A stretch of 25,239 nt of DNA from an uncultured virus (IMG/VR IMGVR_UViG_3300017963_000022) (IMGVR_UViG_3300017963_000022), one strand, 5' to 3'. Shown: positions 11,151 through 24,188, numbered from the stretch's first letter. Made by a program: numbers and translations. The notes: a model not told the origin generated them from the sequence alone.

Positions 11151-12089
11151 CTATTCCAAACCTAAAGTTTGGAGAATGTCTTGTGAGTCTGCACGATTAC
11201 ATGCGGTTACTGCTTGAATTGTGCGAGGTAAGTAGTAGTCTACAAGCTCTTTGGCTACAGCTAAATCCTTTACTGCTAGAGAAACTGCATATGTAGCGGC
11301 CTCTATAACACGCTCAACAGTCTCTAAAGTTCGCAACCAGGATGCAGATAAAGAGCGATATTCTAATCCCATGTCTCCATTAGGATAGAGTTTTGATCTG
11401 TACCTACCAGGATTACCAAAAACTTCTTTCCGAAGAACCTCAAGTTCAGGCTCATCTGAAACAGCTACCCCCATATTTCCAACAGTGATAGCGAGAAGTC
11501 GGATAATTGTTTTTTGGTGTTGGTGCATATAATCTCCAAAATCAGCACTAATGCTCAAATGAAGATGTCCACCTAAACCTCGGTACTCCCAACCATCTAG
11601 GGTAACTGTCTCGCAGTTATAGGCGGAGTCTATTGCATCTTTATCGGGGTTACAACCAGCAATGGACGCTTGATACAGGTCTCCGTTTTGATCGAGTTTG
11701 TCAGTAAACATTGAAGCATCAAACTTTGATACAGGAGCAAACCAAGGCTTGTATCCTTTGGGCCTGAGAAATTCTTCAAGAGCTTCCCGTGCTTTGTGGA
11801 ACTTCTTGAAGAGAGCTTCCGCAGTTACAGAAGGAGAAAAATCGGTTTCTACAAGAGCAGAGTCTTGATACCACGTACCATCCTCCATCTTCAAAAAGAT
11901 GTGGTGCGGTATTTTTTCTCCGTCCATTGACTCATCCCAACGTTCTTCAAGAACTGGAAGAACTCCTTGATGAAAGAGAAGTGCGGGTGGATAAAGAGTT
12001 TTGATTGGTTCTACATCTTCTACTTTCACAACGGCGGCCTCCACATCAGAGGCAAACTTCAATCCTGCTACTTTCTGTACATTATTCAT
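11151..12089 (-). CDS. phiEco32-like COOH-NH2 ligase type 2 (glutamine-synthetase/GCS fold)
   Basis: FASDVE (GxDxE-like), QDSALVE, GCNPD, RGLGGHLH, R...FG..G.YR.K.Y and GLEYRSLS motifs. Confidence 0.88.
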   Translation of the reverse strand: MNNVQKVAGLKFASDVEAAVVKVEDVEPIKTLYPPALLFHQGVLPVLEERWDESMDGEKIPHHIFLKMEDGTWYQDSALVETDFSPSVTAEALFKKFHKAREALEEFLRPKGYKPWFAPVSKFDASMFTDKLDQNGDLYQASIAGCNPDKDAIDSAYNCETVTLDGWEYRGLGGHLHLSISADFGDYMHQHQKTIIRLLAITVGNMGVAVSDEPELEVLRKEVFGNPGRYRSKLYPNGDMGLEYRSLSASWLRTLETVERVIEAATYAVSLAVKDLAVAKELVDYYLPRTIQAVTACNRADSQDILQTLGLE

Positions 12090-12090
12090 A

Positions 12091-12468
12091 CTATTCTCCT
12101 TTAAGTTGTACAGTTTCTACGAGCTTTAAGAGTGTTTTACGCTCGTATCTATCTGGAAGCTCGTTTTCAATATCATCAGCATGTTGTTTACAATAGATTC
12201 CAGAGTGACCATTGAATATGGACATTTGTTCTAGTTCGACAATCTCGAAACACCTAGAACACTCGGCAGTTACTTCTGAAACATCGACTTCCGAGCTACA
12301 AGTTGCACAATAAAACTTGGTTCGGAGGTCTACTGAGTTCTGTTGCATTGGTACAAGTGATACATGAGAAACTTGTAGACACTTTCCTCCAAATACAGGG
12401 AGCCCCAATACTAAAAGATTTGGTAGAAGTAACTGTACCGGAGACGCACATTTTTTATGGTAAAACAT
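12091..12468 (-). CDS. Putative zinc-binding protein
   Basis: HKKC, CATC, CSRC and CKQH ligand pairs. Confidence 0.7.
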   Translation of the reverse strand: MFYHKKCASPVQLLLPNLLVLGLPVFGGKCLQVSHVSLVPMQQNSVDLRTKFYCATCSSEVDVSEVTAECSRCFEIVELEQMSIFNGHSGIYCKQHADDIENELPDRYERKTLLKLVETVQLKGE

Positions 12469-12476
12469 ACTATCTC

Positions 12477-13481
12477 CTAAATTACCATGATATGTTGAGC
12501 ATAGGTATTAGGTATACCTAACTCCTTCGCTACAAGAAGCGGTGACATTCTAAACTTTTCGTCCACATGGAAGAACAGCATTTGATTTTGGCAAATAATC
12601 TTGGAGACTTGAAAAGACATTACAATGTCCTGAACAACTTTTATTCTCGCTTGCGGTACTGCCCACTTTGATGGGTGATTTTCGAGAAGTTTTGATAGTG
12701 TTATTCGACCATCATAGAGCGCATCATCTTCTTCATCTTCAAAACTCGCATCAATGAGTTCACCGTCTTCAAGAGGTAGTTGCTCCATATCAATATCATA
12801 ACTAGCAAAAGCTTGAGTACAGTTTTTAAGCTGATCTCCGCTAGGAACCCAAGAACTCTTAATAGAGCCCTTTGGTTCAAAATATGTTTGATACCTTTCC
12901 AAGAGACTGTCTGGAATATCCAAACCAAGATGTCGTACCCATGCTCTCATCAAGAGTCGAAGACCAAAAAGCGAAGTTTTTCCAGAAGAAGATAATGAGC
13001 TCATTTTGTCTTTAAGATAAGCAACCTCTTGAAAAAATCCTTCCGCATCTGTTTTAACAATATCCCCTCCATATCCAGCCATTAAGATTGAAAGTGTAGT
13101 GTTTGTCTGTGGAGTTGGAAGACTGTTAAAATACTCTGGAGCTTCTGGATAACCATAGTGAACATTCCAAATAGCTTTTTCTGTGAGAAGGTCAACAAGG
13201 TATGTTCCTCCCTCTGAGTCTTCAGGATGAAGCCCTGAGTTCTTTATACAAACTCTAAGACGGTCTGCTGGCATCATGAGTTCTACAGAAGGTACAACAA
13301 ACTGAATTAAGTCGTGATGTATGCGAACATACGCTATGTAGGAGGCATCGAACTTATAGAAGAGATCGAAAGTTCCCATTTGGAGAAATGTTCCAAAGTC
13401 TGTACAAAAAGGTAGAACTTTTTCAAACTCAAAAGGCTCCTTTATTGCCTCAATTGGTTGTGAGAATGGTTTTTTAGCCAT
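12477..13481 (-). CDS. Hypothetical protein, 334 aa
   Basis: Long ORF overlapping the RuvB-like gene end; no motif recognised. Confidence 0.8.
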   Translation of the reverse strand: MAKKPFSQPIEAIKEPFEFEKVLPFCTDFGTFLQMGTFDLFYKFDASYIAYVRIHHDLIQFVVPSVELMMPADRLRVCIKNSGLHPEDSEGGTYLVDLLTEKAIWNVHYGYPEAPEYFNSLPTPQTNTTLSILMAGYGGDIVKTDAEGFFQEVAYLKDKMSSLSSSGKTSLFGLRLLMRAWVRHLGLDIPDSLLERYQTYFEPKGSIKSSWVPSGDQLKNCTQAFASYDIDMEQLPLEDGELIDASFEDEEDDALYDGRITLSKLLENHPSKWAVPQARIKVVQDIVMSFQVSKIICQNQMLFFHVDEKFRMSPLLVAKELGIPNTYAQHIMVI

Positions 13482-14298
13482 ACGAAGTTAAACTCCTTCC
13501 TTTAGAGTCTATTAGGAGCAATCCTTTTCTTATTAAGAATGGCTCAATTTCCTCAGTTATTACTTTGAGTGGTAGGTTTGCAACAGCCTGTACTCTCGCT
13601 AGACTGGCAACACCGCCAAGCTCCTGCAAAGCATTTAAATATTGTCTATCTCTGGTTGTTATACCTCCTTGTTCTGTACCTAGAATATTCAACATAAGCT
13701 CATGAATTGAGCTTTCAAAAGAATAATCGGAACTAAACTGAACAATTATTGAAACCCTCACAGCTAGTTCTTTTACAATTCTTGGAACTCCTCTACAGTA
13801 TTCCGCTAGAGCTAAACACCAATGCGGAGGAACGTCTGAGAGATTTCGTTTAAAGAACTCAATGAAAGCTATCTGTGCGAGTTGCTCTTTTGTATAGTCC
13901 TCAAAAACAAATTGTATACATCTATTTCGTAAAGGTTCTTCGAGAAGATCATATTTATTTGTGGCTAAAAGAAAGACATAACGCTCAGAACTCATGTAAT
14001 CATAGATTGTTTCCGGTGTTGAGAGTGTATGAACTTCATCTAGAAAATGAAAACGAGCCTGAGGTTTGAAATGTATTCCTGTTTTTGAGATTCGGTACTT
14101 GAAAGTACTCTTAAAGCCAGGGTCAAGGTAACTGAGAAAATAATAGGCTAAAGTACTTTTCCCGTATCCTGAAGAGGCTTCAAAGATTATATTCAAGTTT
14201 TCTCCTGAAAGGATAGATTGAGCAATAAGGGATAACTCTGTTTTAATATTTGTTTGTCCGATAAAACTCCTATCTATCTGTTCTAAAAAAGTAGGCAT
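13474..14298 (-). CDS. ruvB: RuvB-like AAA+ ATPase
   Basis: FIGQ, Walker A SGYGKS, Walker B FLDEVH, AT sensor 1, PLRNR arginine finger, RG.PR sensor 2, and a C-terminal winged helix EPFLI..G......GR. Confidence 0.85.
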   Translation of the reverse strand: MPTFLEQIDRSFIGQTNIKTELSLIAQSILSGENLNIIFEASSGYGKSTLAYYFLSYLDPGFKSTFKYRISKTGIHFKPQARFHFLDEVHTLSTPETIYDYMSSERYVFLLATNKYDLLEEPLRNRCIQFVFEDYTKEQLAQIAFIEFFKRNLSDVPPHWCLALAEYCRGVPRIVKELAVRVSIIVQFSSDYSFESSIHELMLNILGTEQGGITTRDRQYLNALQELGGVASLARVQAVANLPLKVITEEIEPFLIRKGLLLIDSKGRSLTSYG

Positions 14299-14308
14299 TG
14301 ATAATCTC

Positions 14309-15103
14309 CTAACCTGGAGTAGTTAACATGTCCTCAAGAACTTCTTCTGCTAGTTGTCTTGCACTCCCATTATCTAAACCAAAGGCAGTATTGGGCTCAA
14401 AGAACACTGTACCAACTTTTGTTGACCATCCAACATCTAGAGCAAAGAATCGCCCTGGAAGTATTCTCGATGCCTTGAGCACATCTGCACACATTCTTGG
14501 ATATTTATTTTCAGGCTCAAATCTTCTAGAGTACCTGTATTTGTCGTTGTGTCTAATTTTGATTTTTCGAGAATCGTTTTCGCCTGACCTCAGAACTTTC
14601 TTAGATACTCTAAAAATTCTAGGTTCTGTACCATTATTTTGTTTGTACACAAAGAACCGATATTCAGTTCTTACTGGAATATAGGAGCACCAATAAGCAC
14701 CGTGTACCCAATGGTTACTAAAAATCTCTGCATTTATGCAGGGGTACATTCCCTTACCCTTGGAGCCTGTAAGTGTAGTGCGAACAATTAAAGGAAAGTT
14801 CCTCTCTTCTGGTGGTGTTGATACAAACTTTGGAGAATTAAGACCATTTGCTAATAAAAGCTCAGAAACTTTTAGCTTGTCTATTAGGAATTTTATATCC
14901 TTGGCAGAATTTCTGTTAGTCTCTCTTCTTTGTTCTGATTGTCGAAGTTCATAAGAGTTTCCGTAACGAAGAAAAATTCTTGTGTCTCTTATAACTACAT
15001 TGCTTACACGAGAAGTTACGGGTATTTGTTCTCCAGAAAGTTCTTCAATGTGTTTAGAAAGGAGTTTTGCAGAAGGTAATGTTAGTTTTGCAGATACTAT
15101 CAT
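14309..15103 (-). CDS. ATP-grasp ligase (RimK/YheCD-like)
   Basis: DKLK, FPLIVR, GSKGKG, EYRFFV, FFALDV and FFEPNTAFGL motifs. Confidence 0.8.
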   Translation of the reverse strand: MIVSAKLTLPSAKLLSKHIEELSGEQIPVTSRVSNVVIRDTRIFLRYGNSYELRQSEQRRETNRNSAKDIKFLIDKLKVSELLLANGLNSPKFVSTPPEERNFPLIVRTTLTGSKGKGMYPCINAEIFSNHWVHGAYWCSYIPVRTEYRFFVYKQNNGTEPRIFRVSKKVLRSGENDSRKIKIRHNDKYRYSRRFEPENKYPRMCADVLKASRILPGRFFALDVGWSTKVGTVFFEPNTAFGLDNGSARQLAEEVLEDMLTTPG

Positions 15104-16425
15104 TCTTTATCTCCTCTTCTTGTAGTAAGTTCAATTGAGTGAAGTGTGTCTTCTGGAGTAAACATATATGGAAATTGCAGATCAGGAAACTGTTTATATA
15201 AACCACGAGCATCGTATGTTGTATAGGAGTTTCTTCTGATTTTTCTCCAACGTTTGAAAATTGTTTTCTGTTGTCCTGATTCTTCGAGGAAGGCTAAAGC
15301 GGGTTTTACAAAGATTAGAGTAAAGTATCGTAGGCTTTTTGGAGTAGCTCCAGCAAGTCCTGTACCAGTGAAAATAGTGAGAAGTTGGTCATATTCGTAA
15401 AGGGAGATTTCGCCCAATTGCTTCATTTGTTTTTCTACCAACCTCAAGGCTGTATCGGATTGTGTACTAGTAGTCGGAGTGTGGACAGTGCTGGTACCAG
15501 TTGCACGCTGAGCATGACTCCTTGCATGAGATGTATGGGCGGGGATTTGCTTTTGAGGTTGGTTTTTTGCTTTTGGGTAAACCTTTACATTTTGTTCAAT
15601 TTTTCCAATTTTTTCTAGTTTCTTACCCTTGACCTCGAAGATAGTTTCTTCTGCAAGAAGTTCTGGAGTTGTGTAGGTTAAGACAGCGTCTTTATGTTGT
15701 TTCCATATTTGAACTAGAAGATGTAGAGAATCTCGTAAACCTTCATACTCTGTGTTTACAACAAAGCCCACGTATTTCCCATTGACTGAAACTTCAGAGT
15801 AATGAAGTATTGCTTTTCCTCGAACAACATATACTTTTTGTGTGTGCATCTCTTCTATTAAGAAAGCAAACTTTCCATAAAACTCTTTCATAGCAGTTTG
15901 AAGAGCTTTCCTAACATTGACACTAATATTTTTGTAGAGTTTCTTTTCTCTACTTTTCTCATATTCTTGAGCAAATACTTCGAGGAACATTTGACTATCA
16001 ATCATGTCTGGAAACTCTTCTTCTGCTTTTTTGGCTCTTTCATCTTTTTGAAGATGTAGAGTTCCATTATGAGCAAGAATAAGTGTTCTCGAAGTGTCGA
16101 TGAAGGGATGTAAATGCTGTTCTCTTAGTTTATCGTTATCTTTTTCCTTTTTAGAGAAAGAAGATGTTGCTTTTCTCACATGTGCAATGACTGGATATTT
16201 TGGAAGTAACTCAACATCTACAAAATTATCGAAAAAATTGAGTTGATAATAAGGTGGTGTAAGTTGAACTCTGCGAAATCTTCCAGGACTTCCATTGTTA
16301 GAGATGTGGTAAGTCATCCCTACTCCATCATGGTGATCTTCTTTTGTATTATTAATCAAGAGAAGAGTTAGCAACTGTTTAGTTAGTTCTCGTTGGTTAA
16401 CATTAACAAGAGTTAGTTGGCACAT
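15100..16425 (-). CDS. Class II (Ntn) glutamine amidotransferase with C-terminal extension
   Basis: N-terminal Cys2 (MCQL), DGVG, AHVRKAT, HPF, AHNGTL and DS motifs. Confidence 0.9.
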   Translation of the reverse strand: MCQLTLVNVNQRELTKQLLTLLLINNTKEDHHDGVGMTYHISNNGSPGRFRRVQLTPPYYQLNFFDNFVDVELLPKYPVIAHVRKATSSFSKKEKDNDKLREQHLHPFIDTSRTLILAHNGTLHLQKDERAKKAEEEFPDMIDSQMFLEVFAQEYEKSREKKLYKNISVNVRKALQTAMKEFYGKFAFLIEEMHTQKVYVVRGKAILHYSEVSVNGKYVGFVVNTEYEGLRDSLHLLVQIWKQHKDAVLTYTTPELLAEETIFEVKGKKLEKIGKIEQNVKVYPKAKNQPQKQIPAHTSHARSHAQRATGTSTVHTPTTSTQSDTALRLVEKQMKQLGEISLYEYDQLLTIFTGTGLAGATPKSLRYFTLIFVKPALAFLEESGQQKTIFKRWRKIRRNSYTTYDARGLYKQFPDLQFPYMFTPEDTLHSIELTTRRGDKE

Positions 16426-18052: not shown

Positions 18053-18082
18053 TTTACGCTCCTTTCTTAAAGTCACAGGTAA

Positions 18083-18156
18083 AACCCTGGGTGAGACTCG
18101 AACTCACAACACTCGGCTTAGAAGGCCGATGCTCTATCCAATTGAGCTACCAGGGC
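18083..18156 (-). tRNA. tRNA-Arg (UCU), no encoded CCA
   Basis: GCCCTGG TA GCTC AATTGGATA GAGC A TCGGC CT-TCT-AA GCCGA GTGTT GTGAG TTCGAGT CTCAC CCAGGGT forms a full cloverleaf. Confidence 0.95.
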
Positions 18157-18178
18157 TATTAATTAAATAAGCTCCAAT

Positions 18179-19360: not shown

Positions 19361-20188
19361 TTAGTAAACCTCAAAAAGTTTGTAAGCAAGATAGAGATAT
19401 ACACCGACAATTACTCCGACAAAGAACAGGTAATAAAGAGCATCAAGAGCAAAATTAAACTTTGAAACATTATCAATTGTTTCTTGAATAGAGGTTTCAT
19501 AATTTACTTCGAGTCTACGGCGACCTAGTGGGTCACTGATCTCTCCATTTAAAAACCTGAAAAATACTGTAGCATTGAAAATACGAGGTAGAACTGCGTA
19601 TTTATATCGGATGTTTCCTATACGATCTCCAGGGCCATTTGGATACCAGTAGTTATTTCTCACATTTGTTTGTAATTCAGGAGTATAGATATTTTTTCCA
19701 GCGGTGTGTGTAGTATAGAAGCTAAATAGATGTGAAGGAAACTCTGCACCAGAGAAGGTATAAGAGTTACTAGCCCAAGTATTAGAGCCTACACCATCCC
19801 ACGAATATGTGACAACAGTCTCCGTAGTACAGTTACCGTCCTCATCACATGTAGTTACAGTGTCAACATGCATGGTATATCTCTGCTTATTGTAGTGAAT
19901 TATAGCAAAACTCCCAACAAGCTCAGGCACTTGTTGGGGTTCTTGTGCTACAAACTCACCAGTTGCGAGAACATCACCTGCATCGGTTCTCATGGTATAT
20001 TGAAATAACTCAGTGTTCTGGTCGATCTGTATAGCCTGAGAATACAGTTCTTGTTTTTCTAGCCGACTCTCGAAGATGGGTTGGTATGCAAAGATAGCAC
20101 CACCAATGGCGAGAAATAGAACAACTATTCCAATGAGCCACTCTTTCCAGGAAATGTCCTCATAGCCTCGTGAGTAGTAGTATGACAT
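19361..20188 (-). CDS. Membrane protein with N- and C-terminal TM helices and an extracytoplasmic domain (LemA-adjacent)
   Basis: Hydrophobic segments at both ends; translationally coupled to lemA. Confidence 0.8.
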   Translation of the reverse strand: MSYYYSRGYEDISWKEWLIGIVVLFLAIGGAIFAYQPIFESRLEKQELYSQAIQIDQNTELFQYTMRTDAGDVLATGEFVAQEPQQVPELVGSFAIIHYNKQRYTMHVDTVTTCDEDGNCTTETVVTYSWDGVGSNTWASNSYTFSGAEFPSHLFSFYTTHTAGKNIYTPELQTNVRNNYWYPNGPGDRIGNIRYKYAVLPRIFNATVFFRFLNGEISDPLGRRRLEVNYETSIQETIDNVSKFNFALDALYYLFFVGVIVGVYLYLAYKLFEVY

Positions 20189-20736
20189 TATTGATTACCC
20201 CCAAAGAGATCATCGGGCATCTCGGTGTCGGTGAACTCCAAATAAGAGTAATCAATTTTGTTGTAGCCCAAAATATTGAGAATGAGGCTGTTTGGAAACT
20301 TGCGAGTAAACTTCCGATACTCTTGAACGAAGGTATTCACAGTTTTCCGATGATTGGCAATGAGATTTTCAGTAATGGACAACTCATTCATCAACTCTTT
20401 ATAGGTGTCCACCGCCTGAAGTTCAGGGTATCTCTCGACAACCACTCCTAAATTGTATAAAGCCTCATCAACGTTTCCAGTTTCCGCTGAAGAACGAGCT
20501 TCAGTAATAAGCAGGAGTGTATCCTGCTCATAGGTACTGGCTTGCTCTACAACTTCCACCAAGCTCAAGATCAAATCAATTCTCCGTTTTTCTTGGATGC
20601 TCACATCTGAGAGGGTATTGTTGATCTTTTCCTCCAGGGTGATTGCGGAGTTGTATTTTGAAGCAAAACAACCTCCTAACATGAGGATAACCGCAATCAC
20701 AATTCCGATAAAAATGTATTTTTTGTCAATCTTCAC
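20188..20736 (-). CDS. lemA: LemA family protein
   Basis: N-terminal TM, YN...LEE, RR.DLI..LV, ERYPEL.A, L...EN.I...R and FP motifs. Start moved to GTG 20736 (GTGA overlap, GGAG RBS). Confidence 0.88.
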   Translation of the reverse strand: MKIDKKYIFIGIVIAVILMLGGCFASKYNSAITLEEKINNTLSDVSIQEKRRIDLILSLVEVVEQASTYEQDTLLLITEARSSAETGNVDEALYNLGVVVERYPELQAVDTYKELMNELSITENLIANHRKTVNTFVQEYRKFTRKFPNSLILNILGYNKIDYSYLEFTDTEMPDDLFGGNQ

Positions 20737-20969
20737 GACACTTCTCCCTGCTGGTTCTTCCAGCTTAGGATATAAAACACGATCAACATGACAAATGAGA
20801 AATCTCCAAAAAGTAGAACAGCTACCCAAGGATTCTCGACGCTCGCTAATTCAATTGGATTAGAGAGTAGGTAGATCGTGTTTACCCACGAACTAAATCC
20901 AAGTAGAGCGATACATAGACCGCCAATAAATGCGGCTCCATTGAAGAGATACATGAAACAGGACTTCAT
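20733..20969 (-). CDS. Small two-TM membrane protein
   Basis: AGGAGGT RBS; hydrophobic segments. Confidence 0.7.
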   Translation of the reverse strand: MKSCFMYLFNGAAFIGGLCIALLGFSSWVNTIYLLSNPIELASVENPWVAVLLFGDFSFVMLIVFYILSWKNQQGEVS

Positions 20970-21819: not shown

Positions 21820-21937
21820 TAGGCATGGGGAGAATCGAACTCCCACTTTTCTCCAGAAAGGGAATACTCGGTAGCCCTTTTCACTACTACTCCCCCTTGC
21901 GAGACAGAAGAATGTACTACCACAATACGACATGCCT
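21820..21937 (-). ncRNA. tRNA-like RNA with a 54-nt insert in place of the anticodon loop
   Basis: AGGCATG TC GTAT TGTGGTA GTAC A TTCTT [54 nt] GAGAA AAGT GGGAG TTCGATT CTCCC CATGCCT A. Confidence 0.8.
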
Positions 21938-21964: not shown

Positions 21965-23548
21965 TTATTCTTCTGTGATGAAGTTACTCATCACGTTTGG
22001 AGTAGCTGTATCAAAACCAACTACGTCCATCATCCCACGATCTCTTGGGTCTGCAATAGTAAAACCATTGGAGACCATACCCACAACAATGAGTTTGGCA
22101 GGGATGCCAGTTTTCTGACGGTAATTGTCAAGAGCTTGCTTCGGATGTACCGTTCTTCCAGCCCATGTTTCGGAGTCGGTGTAAACAATGAAAGCATCCA
22201 CAGGAATGTTTCTCTCCGTAGCATATGTCATTGGAAGAGCACAATCAGTACCACCCATCGGGATTGCAGAGACTTTGCGGATAATATCGTCAAGTCTCTG
22301 ATTTGGCGAAAGTGAAACAGGAACGAGATCATGAGAGAAAGCCATGATTGACCATTTTGGTTCCACTCTCGCAGTAACCATAGCCATTGCCGCAGAGCCT
22401 ACACGAGGAGTAATTCCCGTCATTCCTGCAATAGTCTCCCATTCCATTGAGGCTGATACATCCAGAGCCAGCATTGTTCTCTTTTCTGTGGGTTGCACGT
22501 TGCCAAAAGAGGTATAGAAAGCTGTATTGAGTGCATCAACAAGCTGAGAGACTGGATTCCAGGTCAAACTACCTCTTACTCCTTGTCCATTCTCATATGC
22601 TTTGAGTGCTACAAGCACACCCAATGGGTGAATACGAGCATACTTCAATAACTCATCGTTAGTGACACGCTCGATTACTGTGGAGAGGGCATCGGACATT
22701 GGAGCAATCAATCCAAGATTGGTCATCTTTCCGAGATTGCGAATCATTGCACCCAGGGGCATATTCTCCAACAGTGCTTCCCAAACTTCGGCATGATTGA
22801 GGAATTGTGTTGGGAGCATCTCACGAGTTAGATTGTGTTTTTGGATGAGTTTAACAATTTCGGCAACAGAGGTTGATGCTTTTGCTTGTTCATACGCACT
22901 CAGCAATGGGTGTTGTGGCTCTGTATTCTTGCCGACAATCCAACCAAAGATGTCGTTTTGCTCTGAAGTATCTGGTACAGGTTTGATGAGACGCAGGATG
23001 TCTGCATGAGACCAGCCATCACGTTGCTGATATTTCACAACTTGATGAGCGAGACTATCAGTTTTCCTGTTCTTATACCAAGAGGTTAGTCCCTCTTTAT
23101 AGAGTTTCCCCCGACCCCTGAACTGCTTACAGTACTCAACAAAATGGAACAAGTGAGTACCAATGCGAGCAACTTTTGGAAGCACTGAGAAAGCCAACTT
23201 GCGGGTTTCTTCATCTCCCAATCCTGCACACATCGCCAGGATAAACAGAGCAGGGTCATTCTTTGGAGCTCGTCCAGTTGTCGAGATTTCAACAACTCGG
23301 TTAACCACTCGAACACCATCTTCTTTAATGCACTCTAGAACGTTGAGGGCGTTGTCTTTGGTCAGTTTTTGCTCCTTGACATAATAAGTTCCCCCCTCAC
23401 TTCCGAGAATGAGAAAACGGTCAAGCATATGCCATGCCTCTGCCGCCCACCCAAAACCTCCAGCGTTATTCTGTACTTGGTCATCTCGACCAGGAATACG
23501 CTCATCTTGGGGTGTTTCTCGTGTACTAAATTTTTGGTACGTTTTCAT
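21965..23548 (-). CDS. rsr: Ro60/Rsr TROVE-vWA RNA-binding protein, 527 aa
   Basis: NNAGGF, LDRFLILGSEGGTYY, KYQQRDGWSH.D.LRL, MIDAS DVSAS, GGTDCALPM, VYTDSET and VVGFD motifs. Start moved to MKTYQ (AGGAG RBS). Confidence 0.96.
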   Translation of the reverse strand: MKTYQKFSTRETPQDERIPGRDDQVQNNAGGFGWAAEAWHMLDRFLILGSEGGTYYVKEQKLTKDNALNVLECIKEDGVRVVNRVVEISTTGRAPKNDPALFILAMCAGLGDEETRKLAFSVLPKVARIGTHLFHFVEYCKQFRGRGKLYKEGLTSWYKNRKTDSLAHQVVKYQQRDGWSHADILRLIKPVPDTSEQNDIFGWIVGKNTEPQHPLLSAYEQAKASTSVAEIVKLIQKHNLTREMLPTQFLNHAEVWEALLENMPLGAMIRNLGKMTNLGLIAPMSDALSTVIERVTNDELLKYARIHPLGVLVALKAYENGQGVRGSLTWNPVSQLVDALNTAFYTSFGNVQPTEKRTMLALDVSASMEWETIAGMTGITPRVGSAAMAMVTARVEPKWSIMAFSHDLVPVSLSPNQRLDDIIRKVSAIPMGGTDCALPMTYATERNIPVDAFIVYTDSETWAGRTVHPKQALDNYRQKTGIPAKLIVVGMVSNGFTIADPRDRGMMDVVGFDTATPNVMSNFITEE

Positions 23549-23576
23549 CAGCTTATCTCCTATAAGCAATAGTGAA
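23544..23576 (-). promoter_or_regulatory. Y-RNA-mimic hairpin over the rsr RBS and start codon (putative autoregulatory operator)
   Basis: UUC ACU AUU GCUUAU [AGGAG] AUAAGC U GAU GAA: a 6-bp stem around the SD, a bulged U, then G-U, A-U and U-A pairs using the AUG. Confidence 0.6.
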
Positions 23577-23580
23577 TAAA

Positions 23581-23645
23581 AAGAGAGCAAGTTGGTGATA
23601 GTGGGAGACATCTTAGCAGGATAACCCACTATCTTCAGCTCTCTT
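23581..23645 (-). ncRNA. Y RNA-like element A (65 nt)
   Basis: AAGAGAGC TGAAG ATAGTGGG TTATC ... CCCACTAT CACCAA CTT GCTCTCTT. Confidence 0.85.
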
Positions 23646-23659
23646 ATAAACTCAAAAGA

Positions 23660-23753
23660 AAGGAGAACAAGTTGTGAACTTGGGAGTTTAGGGCTCCTTT
23701 CGGAGTTCCCGCTGGTATAGGTTAGCGATAACCCAAATTCTTCAGTTCTCCTT
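23660..23753 (-). ncRNA. Y RNA-like element B (94 nt)
   Basis: AAGGAGAAC TGAA GAATTTGGG TTATC ... CTCC-GAAA-GGAG ... CCCAAGTTC ACAA CTT GTTCTCCTT. Confidence 0.85.
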
Positions 23754-23755
23754 AT

Positions 23756-23881
23756 TGAGCATGGTGAGATTTGAACTCACGACCTCCTGTTTTGAATGAT
23801 AACCCTCATACTTCAGCCTAACGGCAAGTGAGTGTAAAAGGGAAATGTATACAGGTGCTCTACCAACTGAGCTACATGCTC
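23756..23881 (-). ncRNA. tRNA-Y RNA chimera C: intact tRNA body with a permuted Y module in the anticodon loop
   Basis: GAGCATG TA GCTC AGTTGGTA GAGC A CCTGT [60 nt incl. CCCTTTTAC..CTT GCC GTTA GGC TGAA GTATGAGGG TTATC] ACAGG AGGTC GTGAG TTCAAAT CTCAC CATGCTC A. Confidence 0.85.
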
Positions 23882-23887
23882 ACAAAG

Positions 23888-23962
23888 TCTTGGGGCAAGG
23901 GGGGAGTCAGGGAGAAAAGCTTCTTCAACAAGGAGATAACCCTAAACTCATCAGCCCCAAGA
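23888..23962 (-). ncRNA. Y RNA-like element D (75 nt)
   Basis: TCTTGGGGC TGAT GAGTTTAGGG TTATC ... CCCTGACTC CCCC CTT GCCCCAAGA. Confidence 0.85.
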
Positions 23963-23972
23963 TATTTATGTA

Positions 23973-24188
23973 TTAAAACTCATCATATTGCTCGGCAATG
24001 ATCTCTCCACCCTCCATAGGGTCATTAGACCAGAGAACAAAAGAAATACCAATGTCGTCAGTTAAAGGCTCAATCTCAAGTCTATGACCATCATCAAAGA
24101 CAAGGCAACGTGAAACTCCAGGATTAGATGGTTTTCCGAGACCAACATATTGTTTTCCTTTGAGATACATAAAAATATCTTCTATCAT
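23973..24188 (-). CDS. Hypothetical protein, 71 aa
   Basis: Start moved to MIEDIF (AAGGAG RBS); paralogous segment at 7535-7702. Confidence 0.75.
   Translation of the reverse strand: MIEDIFMYLKGKQYVGLGKPSNPGVSRCLVFDDGHRLEIEPLTDDIGISFVLWSNDPMEGGEIIAEQYDEF

What the first reader, a model, noticed from the sequence alone, without database searches (positions are those of the whole stretch)
23756..23881. Intact tRNA with a circularly permuted Y module in its anticodon loop: inverse topology of YrlA
Seen: canonical acceptor, D, anticodon and T stems. The 60-nt loop (23791-23850) has the Y 3' strand first (CCCUUUUAC...CUUGCC), a GUUA cap, then the 5' strand (GGCUGAAGUAUGAGGGUUAUC). Known: in YrlA RNAs the ends lie in the Ro-binding stem and the acceptor-like stem is closed by a loop. 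Here the ends lie in the acceptor stem, so RNase P, 3' trimming, CCA addition and perhaps aminoacylation are possible. Inference: a new Y RNA class or an evolutionary intermediate between tRNA and YrlA; potentially a chargeable tRNA mimic carrying Ro60.
Basis: partly seen in the sequence, partly recalled or inferred. Interest (0 to 1): 0.9.

Follow-up and report, generated by a model that had tools for sequence, protein, structure and literature searches.

The report
Y RNA built in tRNA order
A phage gene next to its Ro60 gene encodes an otherwise complete tRNA whose anticodon loop is replaced by a Ro60-binding Y-RNA stem, a rearranged and apparently undescribed form of the known tRNA-like Y RNAs.

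Summary
On the minus strand, 23881..23756 is a full tRNA body (Rfam tRNA 59.8 bits). A 60-nt insert replaces the anticodon loop. The insert is a Y-RNA stem closed by GUUA, with the "3' strand" first and the "5' strand" second. Its CUGAAG...GGGUUAUC / CACUUG motifs match three ordinary Y RNAs flanking it. The array ends 30 nt before a phage Ro60/Rsr gene; the element itself lies 208 nt upstream.

It is not a one-off. A rule-based classifier found the same tRNA-order architecture in 17 of 64 Rsr-encoding viral contigs, 3 of 80 cellular contigs and 8 of 80 metagenome contigs. Known YrlA-order RNAs occupied 13, 48 and 35 of those loci. Only 2 loci had both. Cultured actinophages carry the conventional order with the same junction.

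It therefore reads as a circular permutation of YrlA with real tRNA ends, most likely matured by RNase P, 3' trimming and CCA addition, and bound by Rsr. Charging is untested and has no support for this copy (U-1:A73, no anticodon). However, 13 of 32 relatives carry the tRNA-His mark G-1:C73. Five literature searches found no description. Earlier notes of this scan saw a similar module on other DNA. Verdict: new variant of a known kind.

The parts
23756..23881 (-). tRNA-order Y RNA: a full tRNA body with a closed Y stem in place of the anticodon loop (type A: intact 5-bp anticodon stem)
   Evidence: Rfam tRNA 59.8 bits with a 60-nt insert; fold; own models R1 165.9 bits and R2 127 bits; classifier call; typed A.
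23875..23881 (-). Acceptor stem 5' strand GAGCAUG. The base before it (U at 23882) can pair with discriminator A73.
   Evidence: Sequence; 7 of 7 pairs.
23823..23842 (-). Y-stem strand equivalent to the 3' strand of ordinary Y RNAs (CCCUUUUACACUCACUUGCC); it comes first here
   Evidence: Sequence. It pairs with 23818..23803 in the MFE. A CACUUG-type motif is shared with Y1, Y2 and Y4.
23819..23822 (-). GUUA loop closing the end of the Y stem where ordinary Y RNAs have their 5' and 3' termini
   Evidence: Sequence; fold.
23798..23818 (-). Y-stem strand equivalent to the 5' strand of ordinary Y RNAs (GGCUGAAGUAUGAGGGUUAUC), with the presumed Rsr-contact motif. It has GCUGAAG, one mismatch from GNCGAAN0-1G.
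   Evidence: Sequence; motif from Chen 2014; motif count in relatives.
23757..23785 (-). Variable loop AGGUC, T arm GUGAG-UUCAAAU-CUCAC, and acceptor 3' strand CAUGCUC. The discriminator A is at 23756, and no CCA is encoded (AUAAGG follows).
23889..23961 (-). Plain Y RNA 'Y4', end-paired, with no U-run of its own. It ends 7-8 nt before the tRNA 5' end.
   Evidence: Fold z -2.6; sequence.
23662..23751 (-). Plain Y RNA 'Y2'. It starts 5 nt after the discriminator and is followed by UUUCUUUU.
   Evidence: Rfam ceN72-3 28 bits, below threshold; fold z -3.8.
23578..23645 (-). Plain Y RNA 'Y1', ending in a U5 run 30 nt before the rsr start codon
   Evidence: Rfam ceN72-3 35.4 bits, cut-off 38; fold z -4.7.
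21965..23548 (-). rsr: Ro60 orthologue, 527 aa, on the same strand, 208 nt downstream of the element
   Evidence: Pfam TROVE 2.4e-41 and vWA_Ro60 2.3e-67; 45-47% identity to phage 'Ro-like RNA binding protein' genes.

Best explanation
This is a Y RNA of the YrlA functional type written in tRNA order. It is a non-decoding, tRNA-shaped RNA whose anticodon loop is replaced by the Rsr/Ro60-binding stem.

Proposed working (steps 1-3 are inferred, not shown):
1. It is transcribed on the minus strand as part of a Y4 - tRNA-Y - Y2 - Y1 - rsr unit.
2. Because its ends lie in a normal 7-bp acceptor stem with a canonical D/T elbow, host tRNA enzymes would cut it out. RNase P would cut at the 5' end, which would also release Y4. 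3' trimming and the CCA-adding enzyme would finish the 3' end.
3. The closed Y stem would bind the phage Rsr ring through the CUGAAG...GGGUUAUC strand. The tRNA-shaped half, now with a free 3' end, would tether Rsr to a tRNA-recognising partner, as proposed for YrlA.

Shown here: the sequence anatomy, its homology to Y and YrlA modules, its linkage to rsr, its conservation and covariation, and its near-exclusive alternation with YrlA-order RNAs across loci.
For: (1) Anatomy. It has a full tRNA body with a 60-nt insert.

(2) The insert matches its neighbours. It carries the same variant Ro-stem motifs as the three plain Y RNAs of the same array. It lies 208 nt upstream of a TROVE + vWA_Ro60 gene on the same strand.

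(3) Recurrence. The rule-based classifier requires a T-arm, a 7 of 7 acceptor partner and a D-arm, and does not use a covariance model.
- Viral loci: tRNA-order in 17 of 64, YrlA-order in 13 of 64, both in 1.
- Genome contigs: tRNA-order in 3 of 80, YrlA-order in 48 of 80, both in 1.
- Window: tRNA-order only.
- Metagenome loci: tRNA-order in 8 of 80, YrlA-order in 35 of 80, both in 0.
All 28 clean members listed lie on the rsr strand.

(4) Same parts, permuted. Conventional YrlAs in Catera and Cashline have the same junction as the type B tRNA-order members: Y 5' strand, UUAYC, a 3-bp/7-nt mini-hairpin, 2 bp, the variable loop, then the T arm.

(5) Covariation. On the model-fitted alignment A8 (117 distinct rows, of which about 40 carry the Y helices), the three Y helices are 90-97% paired. 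All 11 of their pairs show changes on both sides. When partners are slid by 1-3 columns, overall pairing falls from 94.7% to 39-46% (A6 gave the same picture).

(6) The tRNA-like end matters in this class.
- M. smegmatis YrlA is cut by RNase P and CCA-tailed in vivo (Chen 2014, passages read).
- 36 of 93 distinct YrlA-order acceptor loops begin N-CCA.
- 2 of 32 distinct tRNA-order members encode CCA.
Against: - No RNA data exist. Transcription, mature ends, CCA addition and Rsr binding are all unobserved.
- The window's motif GCUGAAG departs by one base from GNCGAAN0-1G. The strict motif is present in only 9 of 39 tRNA-order members examined, so motif-based arguments for binding are soft.
- The apical helix beyond the bulge is only 3 bp plus a GUUA loop, against about 8 bp in vertebrate Y RNAs (recalled). 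Whether Rsr tolerates a capped end is unknown.
- The covariation counts come from alignments fitted to the model.
- Promoter-like and terminator-like hits in the region are at chance level: 5 found against 5.4 expected, and 3 against 2.2.
- The window copy lacks the GGGA/AGGA 3' junction that 7 of the 10 type A members have.
- The U-1:A73 pair could shift or weaken RNase P cleavage.
Confidence: 0.7

Rival explanations
1. It is a genuine decoding tRNA gene carrying an intron. The Y-like insert would be removed and the product would be a UGA-reading tRNA(UCA), a suppressor or Trp/Sec-type tRNA, for the phage.
For: The last 7 nt of the insert, AUUCAAA, have the form of an anticodon loop (U33, UCA, A37), directly before the anticodon-stem 3' strand. 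In 20 of 40 relatives an anticodon-like 7-nt loop is retained.
Against: - The insert is too small for a group I intron, and Rfam gave no intron hit in the window.
- Established knowledge (recalled): bacteria and their phages have no known protein-endonuclease tRNA splicing.
- The insert is conserved as a Y module with covarying stems and always sits beside rsr.
- None of the other 9 type A relatives ends its junction in an anticodon-like heptamer.
- In type B the insertion lies between nt 28 and 29 of the stem, not at 37/38.
- Triplets of long-arm isotypes (Leu, Ser, Tyr) sit on short-variable-loop bodies, so the triplets are not cognate.
Confidence: 0.05
2. The tRNA body is only a processing signal (punctuation). 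It would recruit RNase P and 3' nucleases to cut the Y-RNA array into units, as tRNA-like elements do for other transcripts. The embedded stem would have no role of its own.
For: Y4 has no U-run and ends 7-8 nt before the tRNA 5' end. Y2 starts 5 nt after the discriminator. Y2 and Y1 have their own U-runs. tRNA-like structures that direct RNase P 3'-end formation are known (Wang et al. preprint, introduction passage read).
Against: In the relatives examined, the tRNA-order element largely replaces YrlA. Across 224 loci and the window, 28 loci and the window have the tRNA order, 96 loci have the YrlA order, and only 2 have both. This alternation argues that it is the YrlA equivalent, not an accessory. 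The embedded stem keeps Ro-stem motifs and covaries. A bare tRNA or mini-helix would suffice for punctuation.
Confidence: 0.15
3. It is a misread conventional YrlA or tandem array. The real RNA would start at the GGCUGAAG strand and pair with a Y 3' strand further on, or the gene would be a decayed tRNA hit by an insertion.
For: Tandem conventional YrlAs, such as those of Cashline, do give spurious tRNA-order hits to my model (48.6 bits). Concatemeric arrays exist in which both readings are possible.
Against: - The window has only one set of tRNA halves, and they pair 7 of 7 with each other.
- There is no acceptor partner downstream; the classifier finds 0 YrlA-order elements in the window.
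- The two Y strands are joined by only 4 nt.
- The next downstream Y 3' strands belong to Y2 and Y1, which are self-contained.
- Conservation of every tRNA tertiary position argues against decay.
Confidence: 0.05

Closest known systems
YrlA (Y RNA-like A) of bacteria and mycobacteriophages, partner of Rsr/Ro60 (Chen et al. 2014, PMC4201824; Wang et al. 2018 preprint, 10.1101/312249)
   Same: It combines a Ro-binding stem with a tRNA-like domain (acceptor-type stem, D arm, T arm, elbow residues) and is encoded within a few hundred nt of rsr on the same strand. The junction is the same as the one I read in phage Catera and Cashline YrlAs.
   Different: The connectivity is circularly permuted. 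In YrlA the RNA ends lie in the Ro-binding stem and the acceptor stem is a closed loop, 'lacks a free CCA end'. Here the ends lie in the acceptor stem and the Ro-binding stem is capped by GUUA. No Rfam family other than tRNA reaches threshold on it.
M. smegmatis YrlA after processing (Chen et al. 2014)
   Same: That YrlA has a 7-bp acceptor stem, is cut by RNase P in the acceptor loop and receives CCA in vivo. Its mature form therefore also presents a tRNA-type end together with a Ro-binding stem.
   Different: The processed M. smegmatis RNA is in two pieces, open at both the acceptor and the Ro stem. The window RNA would be a single chain open only at the acceptor end. Its processing is predicted, not shown.
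Ordinary Y RNAs: metazoan Y RNAs, nematode stem-bulge RNAs (Rfam RF01656 hits), D. radiodurans Yrn1, Thermus phage phiLo Yrl1/Yrl2 (PMC12135203, passages read)
   Same: The bulged helix has a conserved purine-rich 5' strand followed by GGGUUAUC and a CA(A)CUUG-type 3' strand. Three such RNAs flank the element.
   Different: In all of those the helix is formed by the RNA's own 5' and 3' ends. Here it is an internal hairpin in reversed strand order, inside a tRNA.
Circularly permuted tRNA genes of red algae and an archaeon (cited in the Wang et al. discussion), and two-piece permuted tmRNA genes (recalled)
   Same: They are a precedent that tRNA-shaped RNAs exist in both gene orders, related by permutation.
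   Different: Those are processed back into normal decoding tRNAs or tmRNA. Nothing suggests that here.

Membership tests
tRNA (Rfam RF00005) | Cloverleaf with a 7-bp acceptor stem, D and T arms and conserved tertiary residues | tested here: met
   59.8 bits against a gathering score of 29, model positions 1-71. U8, A14, G18 G19, A21 and the T-loop UUCAAAU were read.
tRNA (Rfam RF00005) | 7-nt anticodon loop presenting an anticodon | tested here: not met
   60 nt stand in place of the 7-nt loop and fold into a bulged hairpin. ARAGORN in default mode does not call it.
tRNA (Rfam RF00005) | Aminoacylation and decoding | not testable with these tools
   By inspection, no anticodon-independent identity set is present: no G3:U70, no long variable arm, no G-1:C73.
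Y RNA (Ro60-binding module) | Bulged helix with a conserved 5'-strand motif (GNCGAAN0-1G in bacteria; Chen 2014) | tested here: inconclusive
   The window has GCUGAAG, one mismatch. The same variant occurs in Y1 and Y2, and Y4 has GCUGAUG. The strict motif is present in 9 of 39 tRNA-order members. By my own reading of the output, not a script count, a GNCG core is present in 36 of 39.
Y RNA (Ro60-binding module) | Helix formed by the RNA's 5' and 3' ends | tested here: not met
   The strands are in reverse order and joined by GUUA.
Y RNA (Ro60-binding module) | Encoded near a Ro60 orthologue on the same strand (within 4 kb; criterion of Chen 2014) | tested here: met
   It lies 208 nt upstream of a TROVE + vWA_Ro60 ORF on the same strand.
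Y RNA (Ro60-binding module) | Bound by Ro60/Rsr | not testable with these tools
YrlA | tRNA-like domain with T arm, D arm and acceptor-type stem joined to the Ro stem through the anticodon-stem position | tested here: met
   The junction is the same as in the Catera and Cashline YrlAs.
YrlA | Permuted order (Ro 5' strand, T arm, closed acceptor loop, D arm, Ro 3' strand); no free acceptor end | tested here: not met
   The order here is acceptor 5', D, Y, T, acceptor 3'. The classifier finds 1 tRNA-order and 0 YrlA-order elements in the window.
YrlA | Match to a curated YrlA covariance model | tested here: inconclusive
   No YrlA-named family appeared in any of 5 Rfam scans, including the Catera, Cashline, Cece and Trina loci that do hold conventional YrlAs. 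I therefore cannot tell whether the library has a usable model. The accession RF02553 comes from earlier AI notes and is unverified.
Intron-containing tRNA (group I or bulge-helix-bulge type) | Group I catalytic core in the insert | tested here: not met
   No Intron_gpI hit in the window at E up to 10 around the element. The same library did find a group I intron in L019.
Intron-containing tRNA (group I or bulge-helix-bulge type) | Bulge-helix-bulge motif at the exon-intron junctions | not tested
   No formal scan was made. The MFE shows no such motif.

The most novel reading that the evidence does not exclude
tRNA-order Y RNAs may be single-chain Ro60 partners with a real, CCA-tailed and in many cases aminoacylatable acceptor end. 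In relatives the tRNA-His identity mark G-1:C73 occurs in 13 of 32 distinct members, against 1 of 81 ordinary tRNAs from the same loci. In addition, 20 of 40 keep a well-formed anticodon-like loop.

If these RNAs are charged, or are recognised as tRNAs by synthetases, EF-Tu, the ribosome or host anticodon nucleases, then phage Ro60 particles plug directly into translation or into tRNA-targeting defence, as decoys or as sensors.

The tRNA order would also be the ancestral state. YrlA would have arisen from it by shifting unit boundaries in concatemeric arrays such as L076.
Probability: 0.2. Interest if true: 0.85.

Novelty: new variant of a known kind. Interest (0 to 1): 0.66.

Why it matters
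YrlA RNAs are regarded as circularly permuted tRNA mimics that lack a free CCA end, and their effector is still unknown. An un-permuted counterpart occupies the same genomic slot in about a quarter of the viral rsr loci sampled. Many conventional YrlA acceptor loops also encode N-CCA. Together these suggest that an open, tRNA-type acceptor end is part of how this class works, not a mycobacterial curiosity.

This narrows the search for the missing partner to factors that read tRNA ends: the CCA-adding enzyme, 3' exonucleases, synthetases and EF-Tu.

It also gives concrete test objects:
- a one-piece RNA that is easy to transcribe;
- a copy in a cultured bacterium, Singulisphaera sp. PoT (L118);
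- a plausible route by which tRNA and YrlA interconvert.

Tried and rejected
- Expression data: no RNA holder is listed for 23540-23990. Only three DNA metagenome runs hold it, and they may be its source.
- Close DNA relatives: blastn 'distant' of the array against 50,697 phage records found no match.
- Exact-pattern scan of viral contigs with the window's apical motif: it returned 70 loci, but none matched model R2 at E up to 0.001. I treat all 70 as chance matches.
- Whole genome: none is held for this window.
- Rfam YrlA family: it was never reported, even on phage loci with conventional YrlA, so it could not serve as a positive control.
- RNAalifold on MAFFT alignments failed to find the Y stem because the insert was mis-registered. 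I switched to covariance-model alignments.
- Promoter and terminator scan: the counts equal the shuffled expectation. A -35/-10-like site at 24009..23982 (-), just upstream of Y4, is noted but carries no weight.
- Rsr tree for the direction or number of permutation events: FastTree only. Seven rows are on very long branches, at least some probably because I took the longest ORF of the locus. 10 loci were dropped for ORF length. At least 10 T/Y changes are needed, and tRNA-order is only weakly clustered (15 changes against a shuffled mean of 19.0; 2 of 500 shuffles as low). It is not decisive.
- Reviews by Sim & Wolin (2018) and Sim et al. (2020): not held. I could not check whether they mention this topology. 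The supplements of Chen 2014 were not opened.
- Neighbouring genes: no RtcB, kinase/phosphatase, CCA-adding enzyme or other RNA-repair gene was found in the window by Pfam or PHROGs.

Full report
**1. What is there**

The window looks like part of a phage genome. Pfam finds a family A DNA polymerase, a Toprim primase-like protein, a ribonucleotide reductase and a peptide deformylase. PHROGs adds phage families. No whole genome is held for it.

On the minus strand, Rfam's tRNA model matches 23881..23756 over its whole length at 59.8 bits. The single anomaly is 60 nt where the 7-nt anticodon loop belongs. Default ARAGORN finds only the tRNA-Arg(TCT) at 18082-18157. With introns allowed it calls this locus as a tRNA with a 53-nt 'intron'.

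Read directly, the tRNA body is complete:
- acceptor stem GAGCAUG/CAUGCUC;
- U8 and D arm GCUC-AGUUGGUA-GAGC;
- anticodon stem CCUGU/ACAGG and variable loop AGGUC;
- T arm GUGAG-UUCAAAU-CUCAC;
- discriminator A.

No CCA is encoded, and the base before G1 (U) could pair with A73. The minimum-energy fold keeps the cloverleaf and turns the insert into a bulged hairpin (-39.3 kcal/mol, z -3.2).

**2. The insert is a Y-RNA stem in reversed strand order**

The same strand holds three ordinary Y RNAs:
- Y4 (23961..23889), directly upstream of the element;
- Y2 (23751..23662), downstream;
- Y1 (23645..23578), further downstream.

Each folds as an end-paired stem-bulge-stem (z -2.6, -3.8 and -4.7). Each has (G/A)CUGA(A/U)G...GGGUUAUC on the 5' strand and a ...CUUG... 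motif on the 3' strand (CAACUUG in Y1 and Y2, CCUUG in Y4). Y1 and Y2 hit the nematode stem-bulge RNA family, which is the Y-RNA homologue, just below threshold (35.4 and 28 bits, cut-off 38).

The insert has the same two strands with the order swapped: CCCUUUUACACUCACUUGCC, then GUUA, then GGCUGAAGUAUGAGGGUUAUC. The end of the helix that carries the RNA termini in Y1, Y2 and Y4 is capped here. The GGGUUAUC end opens toward the tRNA's anticodon stem.

The array ends 30 nt before the start of a 527-aa ORF with TROVE (2.4e-41) and Ro60 vWA (2.3e-67) domains. That ORF is 45-47% identical to the 'Ro-like RNA binding proteins' of actinophages.

**3. It is a member of a recurrent class**

Using the Rsr protein I fetched four sets of rsr loci:
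- 64 from viral contigs;
- 80 from species-representative genomes;
- 80 from metagenome contigs;
- 8 from cultured phages.

Some metagenome contigs are the same records as viral ones (for example L277 is L003 and L296 is L009), so these sets are not independent.

A covariance model made from the window copy alone (R1) found long relatives at 45-76 bits, ranked above ordinary tRNAs. I then built a second model from the 13 best hits (R2). It found 54 hits of 95 nt or more in the window plus the viral set.

Such models also score tandem conventional YrlAs (see section 4). I therefore wrote a classifier that does not use them. For every T arm it asks whether a 7 of 7 complementary acceptor strand followed by a D arm lies in one of three places:
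- 45-62 nt upstream: an ordinary tRNA;
- 75-190 nt upstream: tRNA order with an insert;
- 3-45 nt downstream: a closed acceptor, meaning YrlA order.

| Set | Loci | tRNA-order loci (elements) | YrlA-order loci (elements) | Both |
|---|---|---|---|---|
| Viral | 64 | 17 (28) | 13 (17) | 1 |
| Genome contigs | 80 | 3 (5) | 48 (86) | 1 |
| Metagenome | 80 | 8 (9) | 35 (58) | 0 |
| Cultured phages | 8 | 0 real | 4 | - |
| Window | 1 | 1 (1) | 0 | - |

- The classifier is strict, so it undercounts.
- At least one long call is probably spurious: L011 819-974 spans two ordinary tRNAs.
- In the cultured phages the one 'long' call (L069) is an ordinary tRNA.
- The three genome contigs with the tRNA order are the Singulisphaera sp. 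PoT chromosome, a Planctomycetales MAG and a Chloroflexia MAG.

The two orders hardly ever share a locus. This is what is expected if they are alternative forms of the same component. All 28 clean members examined lie on the rsr strand. On the model-fitted alignment the Y helices are 90-97% paired, and every one of their 11 pairs shows double changes. Sliding the partners by 1-3 columns drops overall pairing from 94.7% to 39-46%. The fit of the alignment to the model inflates these figures somewhat.

**4. Relation to YrlA**

The literature describes YrlA as a Ro-binding stem formed by the RNA's ends, joined to a tRNA-like domain. [quoted passage not shown] I read these as passages of the Wang et al. 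preprint and of Chen et al. 2014.

I read the regions upstream of the Ro genes of the phages Catera, Cashline, Cece and Trina, and found exactly that order:
1. Y 5' strand;
2. UUAYC;
3. a 3-bp/7-nt mini-hairpin;
4. 2 nt that pair with 2 nt after the D arm;
5. variable loop;
6. T arm;
7. acceptor 3' strand, loop, acceptor 5' strand;
8. D arm;
9. Y 3' strand.

Half of the tRNA-order members (type B, 20 of 40) have the same junction in permuted order. In them the Y arm is inserted between nt 28 and 29 of the anticodon stem, and a 7-nt anticodon-like loop (U at position 2, purine at 6) is retained. Ten of 40, including the window, keep a full 5-bp anticodon stem that opens into the Y stem (type A). 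Four are minimal forms (type C), and 6 did not fit my rules.

The anticodon-like triplets are diverse. They include Leu, Ser and Tyr triplets on bodies with short variable loops, so they are shape mimics and not cognate anticodons.

Tandem YrlAs of Cashline gave a spurious tRNA-order hit to R2 (48.6 bits), but there the acceptor halves pair only 4 of 7. In the window the opposite holds. There is one set of halves pairing 7 of 7, a 4-nt cap, and no downstream acceptor partner. The tRNA-order reading is therefore the only one available.

**5. How it probably works**

Three observations say the acceptor end matters in this class:
- M. smegmatis YrlA is cut by RNase P in its acceptor loop and CCA-tailed in vivo.
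- 36 of 93 distinct YrlA-order acceptor loops in my loci begin with N-CCA (for example UCCAGAU and ACCAAAU), against about 1.5 expected by chance.
- tRNA-order members have unusual ends:

| Feature | tRNA-order members (32 distinct) | Ordinary tRNAs, same loci (81) |
|---|---|---|
| -1:73 paired | 23 | 35 |
| G-1:C73 | 13 | 1 |

I infer that the window RNA is cut out of a Y4-tRNA-Y-Y2-Y1(-rsr) transcript by RNase P and 3' processing, and that this also makes the 3' end of Y4, which has no U-run of its own. It would then receive CCA, bind Rsr through the capped Y stem, and offer a tRNA-shaped handle with a free end to an unidentified tRNA-binding partner.

None of these steps is observed. No RNA run holds the sequence, and promoter and terminator scans are at chance.

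Weak points:
- the one-base departure from the GNCGAAN0-1G motif, although all four modules of this phage share it;
- the short 3-bp apical helix;
- the absence of the G-rich 3' junction seen in 7 of 10 type A members.

Charging of this particular copy has no support.

**6. Rivals**

- A spliced UGA-reading tRNA is suggested by the AUUCAAA heptamer and by ARAGORN's call. It is contradicted by the conserved, covarying, rsr-linked nature of the insert, by non-canonical insertion points, and by the lack of any intron signature.
- A pure processing signal explains the tight spacing to Y4 and Y2. It does not explain the alternation with YrlA or the conservation of the embedded stem.
- A misread tandem YrlA is excluded by the anatomy.

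**7. Novelty**

Five full-text searches found only three kinds of paper: the YrlA papers, the phiLo Ro60 paper (which describes ordinary end-paired Yrl1 and Yrl2), and passing mentions. None describes a tRNA-order Y RNA.

Two reviews were not available, and I did not open the supplements of Chen 2014. Chen et al. discarded hits overlapping tandem tRNA genes, which could have hidden such elements.

Earlier AI notes of this scan report a similar Y-like arm in the anticodon stem of giant-virus tRNA genes (e1-5471844). The scan has therefore seen this class before on other DNA, and that note fits my type B.

I file it as a new variant of a known kind. It works like YrlA and shares its parts, but it fails the family's defining connectivity.

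**8. Evolution**

The Rsr tree (FastTree; 143 of 153 rows; several mis-extracted long branches) needs at least 10 switches between orders and clusters the tRNA order only weakly. By identity the window's nearest Rsr relatives are L141 (58% in the tree alignment) and, at 56-57%, L041, L225-L228 and L263; by path on the tree they are L010, L041, L148, L112 and L042. Of these, L041, L042, L141, L225-L228 and L263 use the tRNA order. L010, L148 and L112 had no call.

Verrucomicrobia-labelled arrays such as L076 1590-2010 are concatemers. In them both the Y strands and the acceptor strands of neighbouring units are joined by short loops. Moving the unit boundary in such an array converts one order into the other. 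This is a natural path, but its direction is unresolved.

Noticed in passing
window 21820-21937 (-): A second tRNA-like RNA lies 27 nt after the rsr stop. It has a 7-bp acceptor stem (AGGCAUG/CAUGCCU, similar to the first element's), a canonical T arm, a reduced D arm, and a 54-nt hairpin without Y motifs in place of the anticodon loop. It scores 30.9 bits with R1 but only 13.9 bits with Rfam tRNA. The fold gives z -2.3. No relative was found among 302 fetched loci.
   Followed up: partly
YrlA-order elements in L073-L152 and L001-L064 (e.g. L076 1720-1726): 36 of 93 distinct closed acceptor loops of conventional YrlA-order RNAs begin with N-CCA (UCCAGAU, ACCAAAU and the like). This reads as an encoded discriminator plus CCA inside the loop, and suggests that opening of the acceptor is common in the conventional form too.
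   Followed up: partly
tRNA-order members, e.g. L042 2147-2269, L226 1193-1314, L263 701-821: G-1:C73, the bacterial tRNA-His identity mark, occurs in 13 of 32 distinct tRNA-order Y RNAs against 1 of 81 ordinary tRNAs of the same loci. L042 and L045-47 also encode CCA after C73. The window copy has U-1:A73 instead.
   Followed up: partly
L076 1590-2010 (Verrucomicrobiia MAG contig): This is a concatemeric array. Y 3' strand, short loop and Y 5' strand alternate with acceptor 3' strand, ACCAGAC and acceptor 5' strand. The topology of each unit therefore depends on where the transcript is cut.
   Followed up: partly
L048 4566-5178; L141 1411-1850; L041 2158-2409: These are tandem sets of two to four tRNA-order Y RNAs.
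   Followed up: partly
L071 2143-2351 (Rhodococcus phage Trina): GenBank annotates a 209-nt pseudo 'tRNA-OTHER' directly upstream of the Ro gene. It overlaps what reads as a conventional YrlA.
   Followed up: partly
window 11151-16425 (-): A run of genes has weak matches to COOH-NH2 ligase, an ATP-grasp (R2K / RimK-like) enzyme, a class-II glutamine amidotransferase and a RuvB/clamp-loader-like AAA protein. It may be a peptide-modification cassette.
   Followed up: no
window 20188-20829 (-): A LemA-family protein (Pfam 4.5e-26) also matches a PHROG annotated as a virion structural protein.
   Followed up: no
L019 6086-6303; L001 798-913: Rfam finds a group I intron (89.1 bits) and a wcaG RNA (56.2 bits) near rsr in two huge viral contigs.
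   Followed up: no
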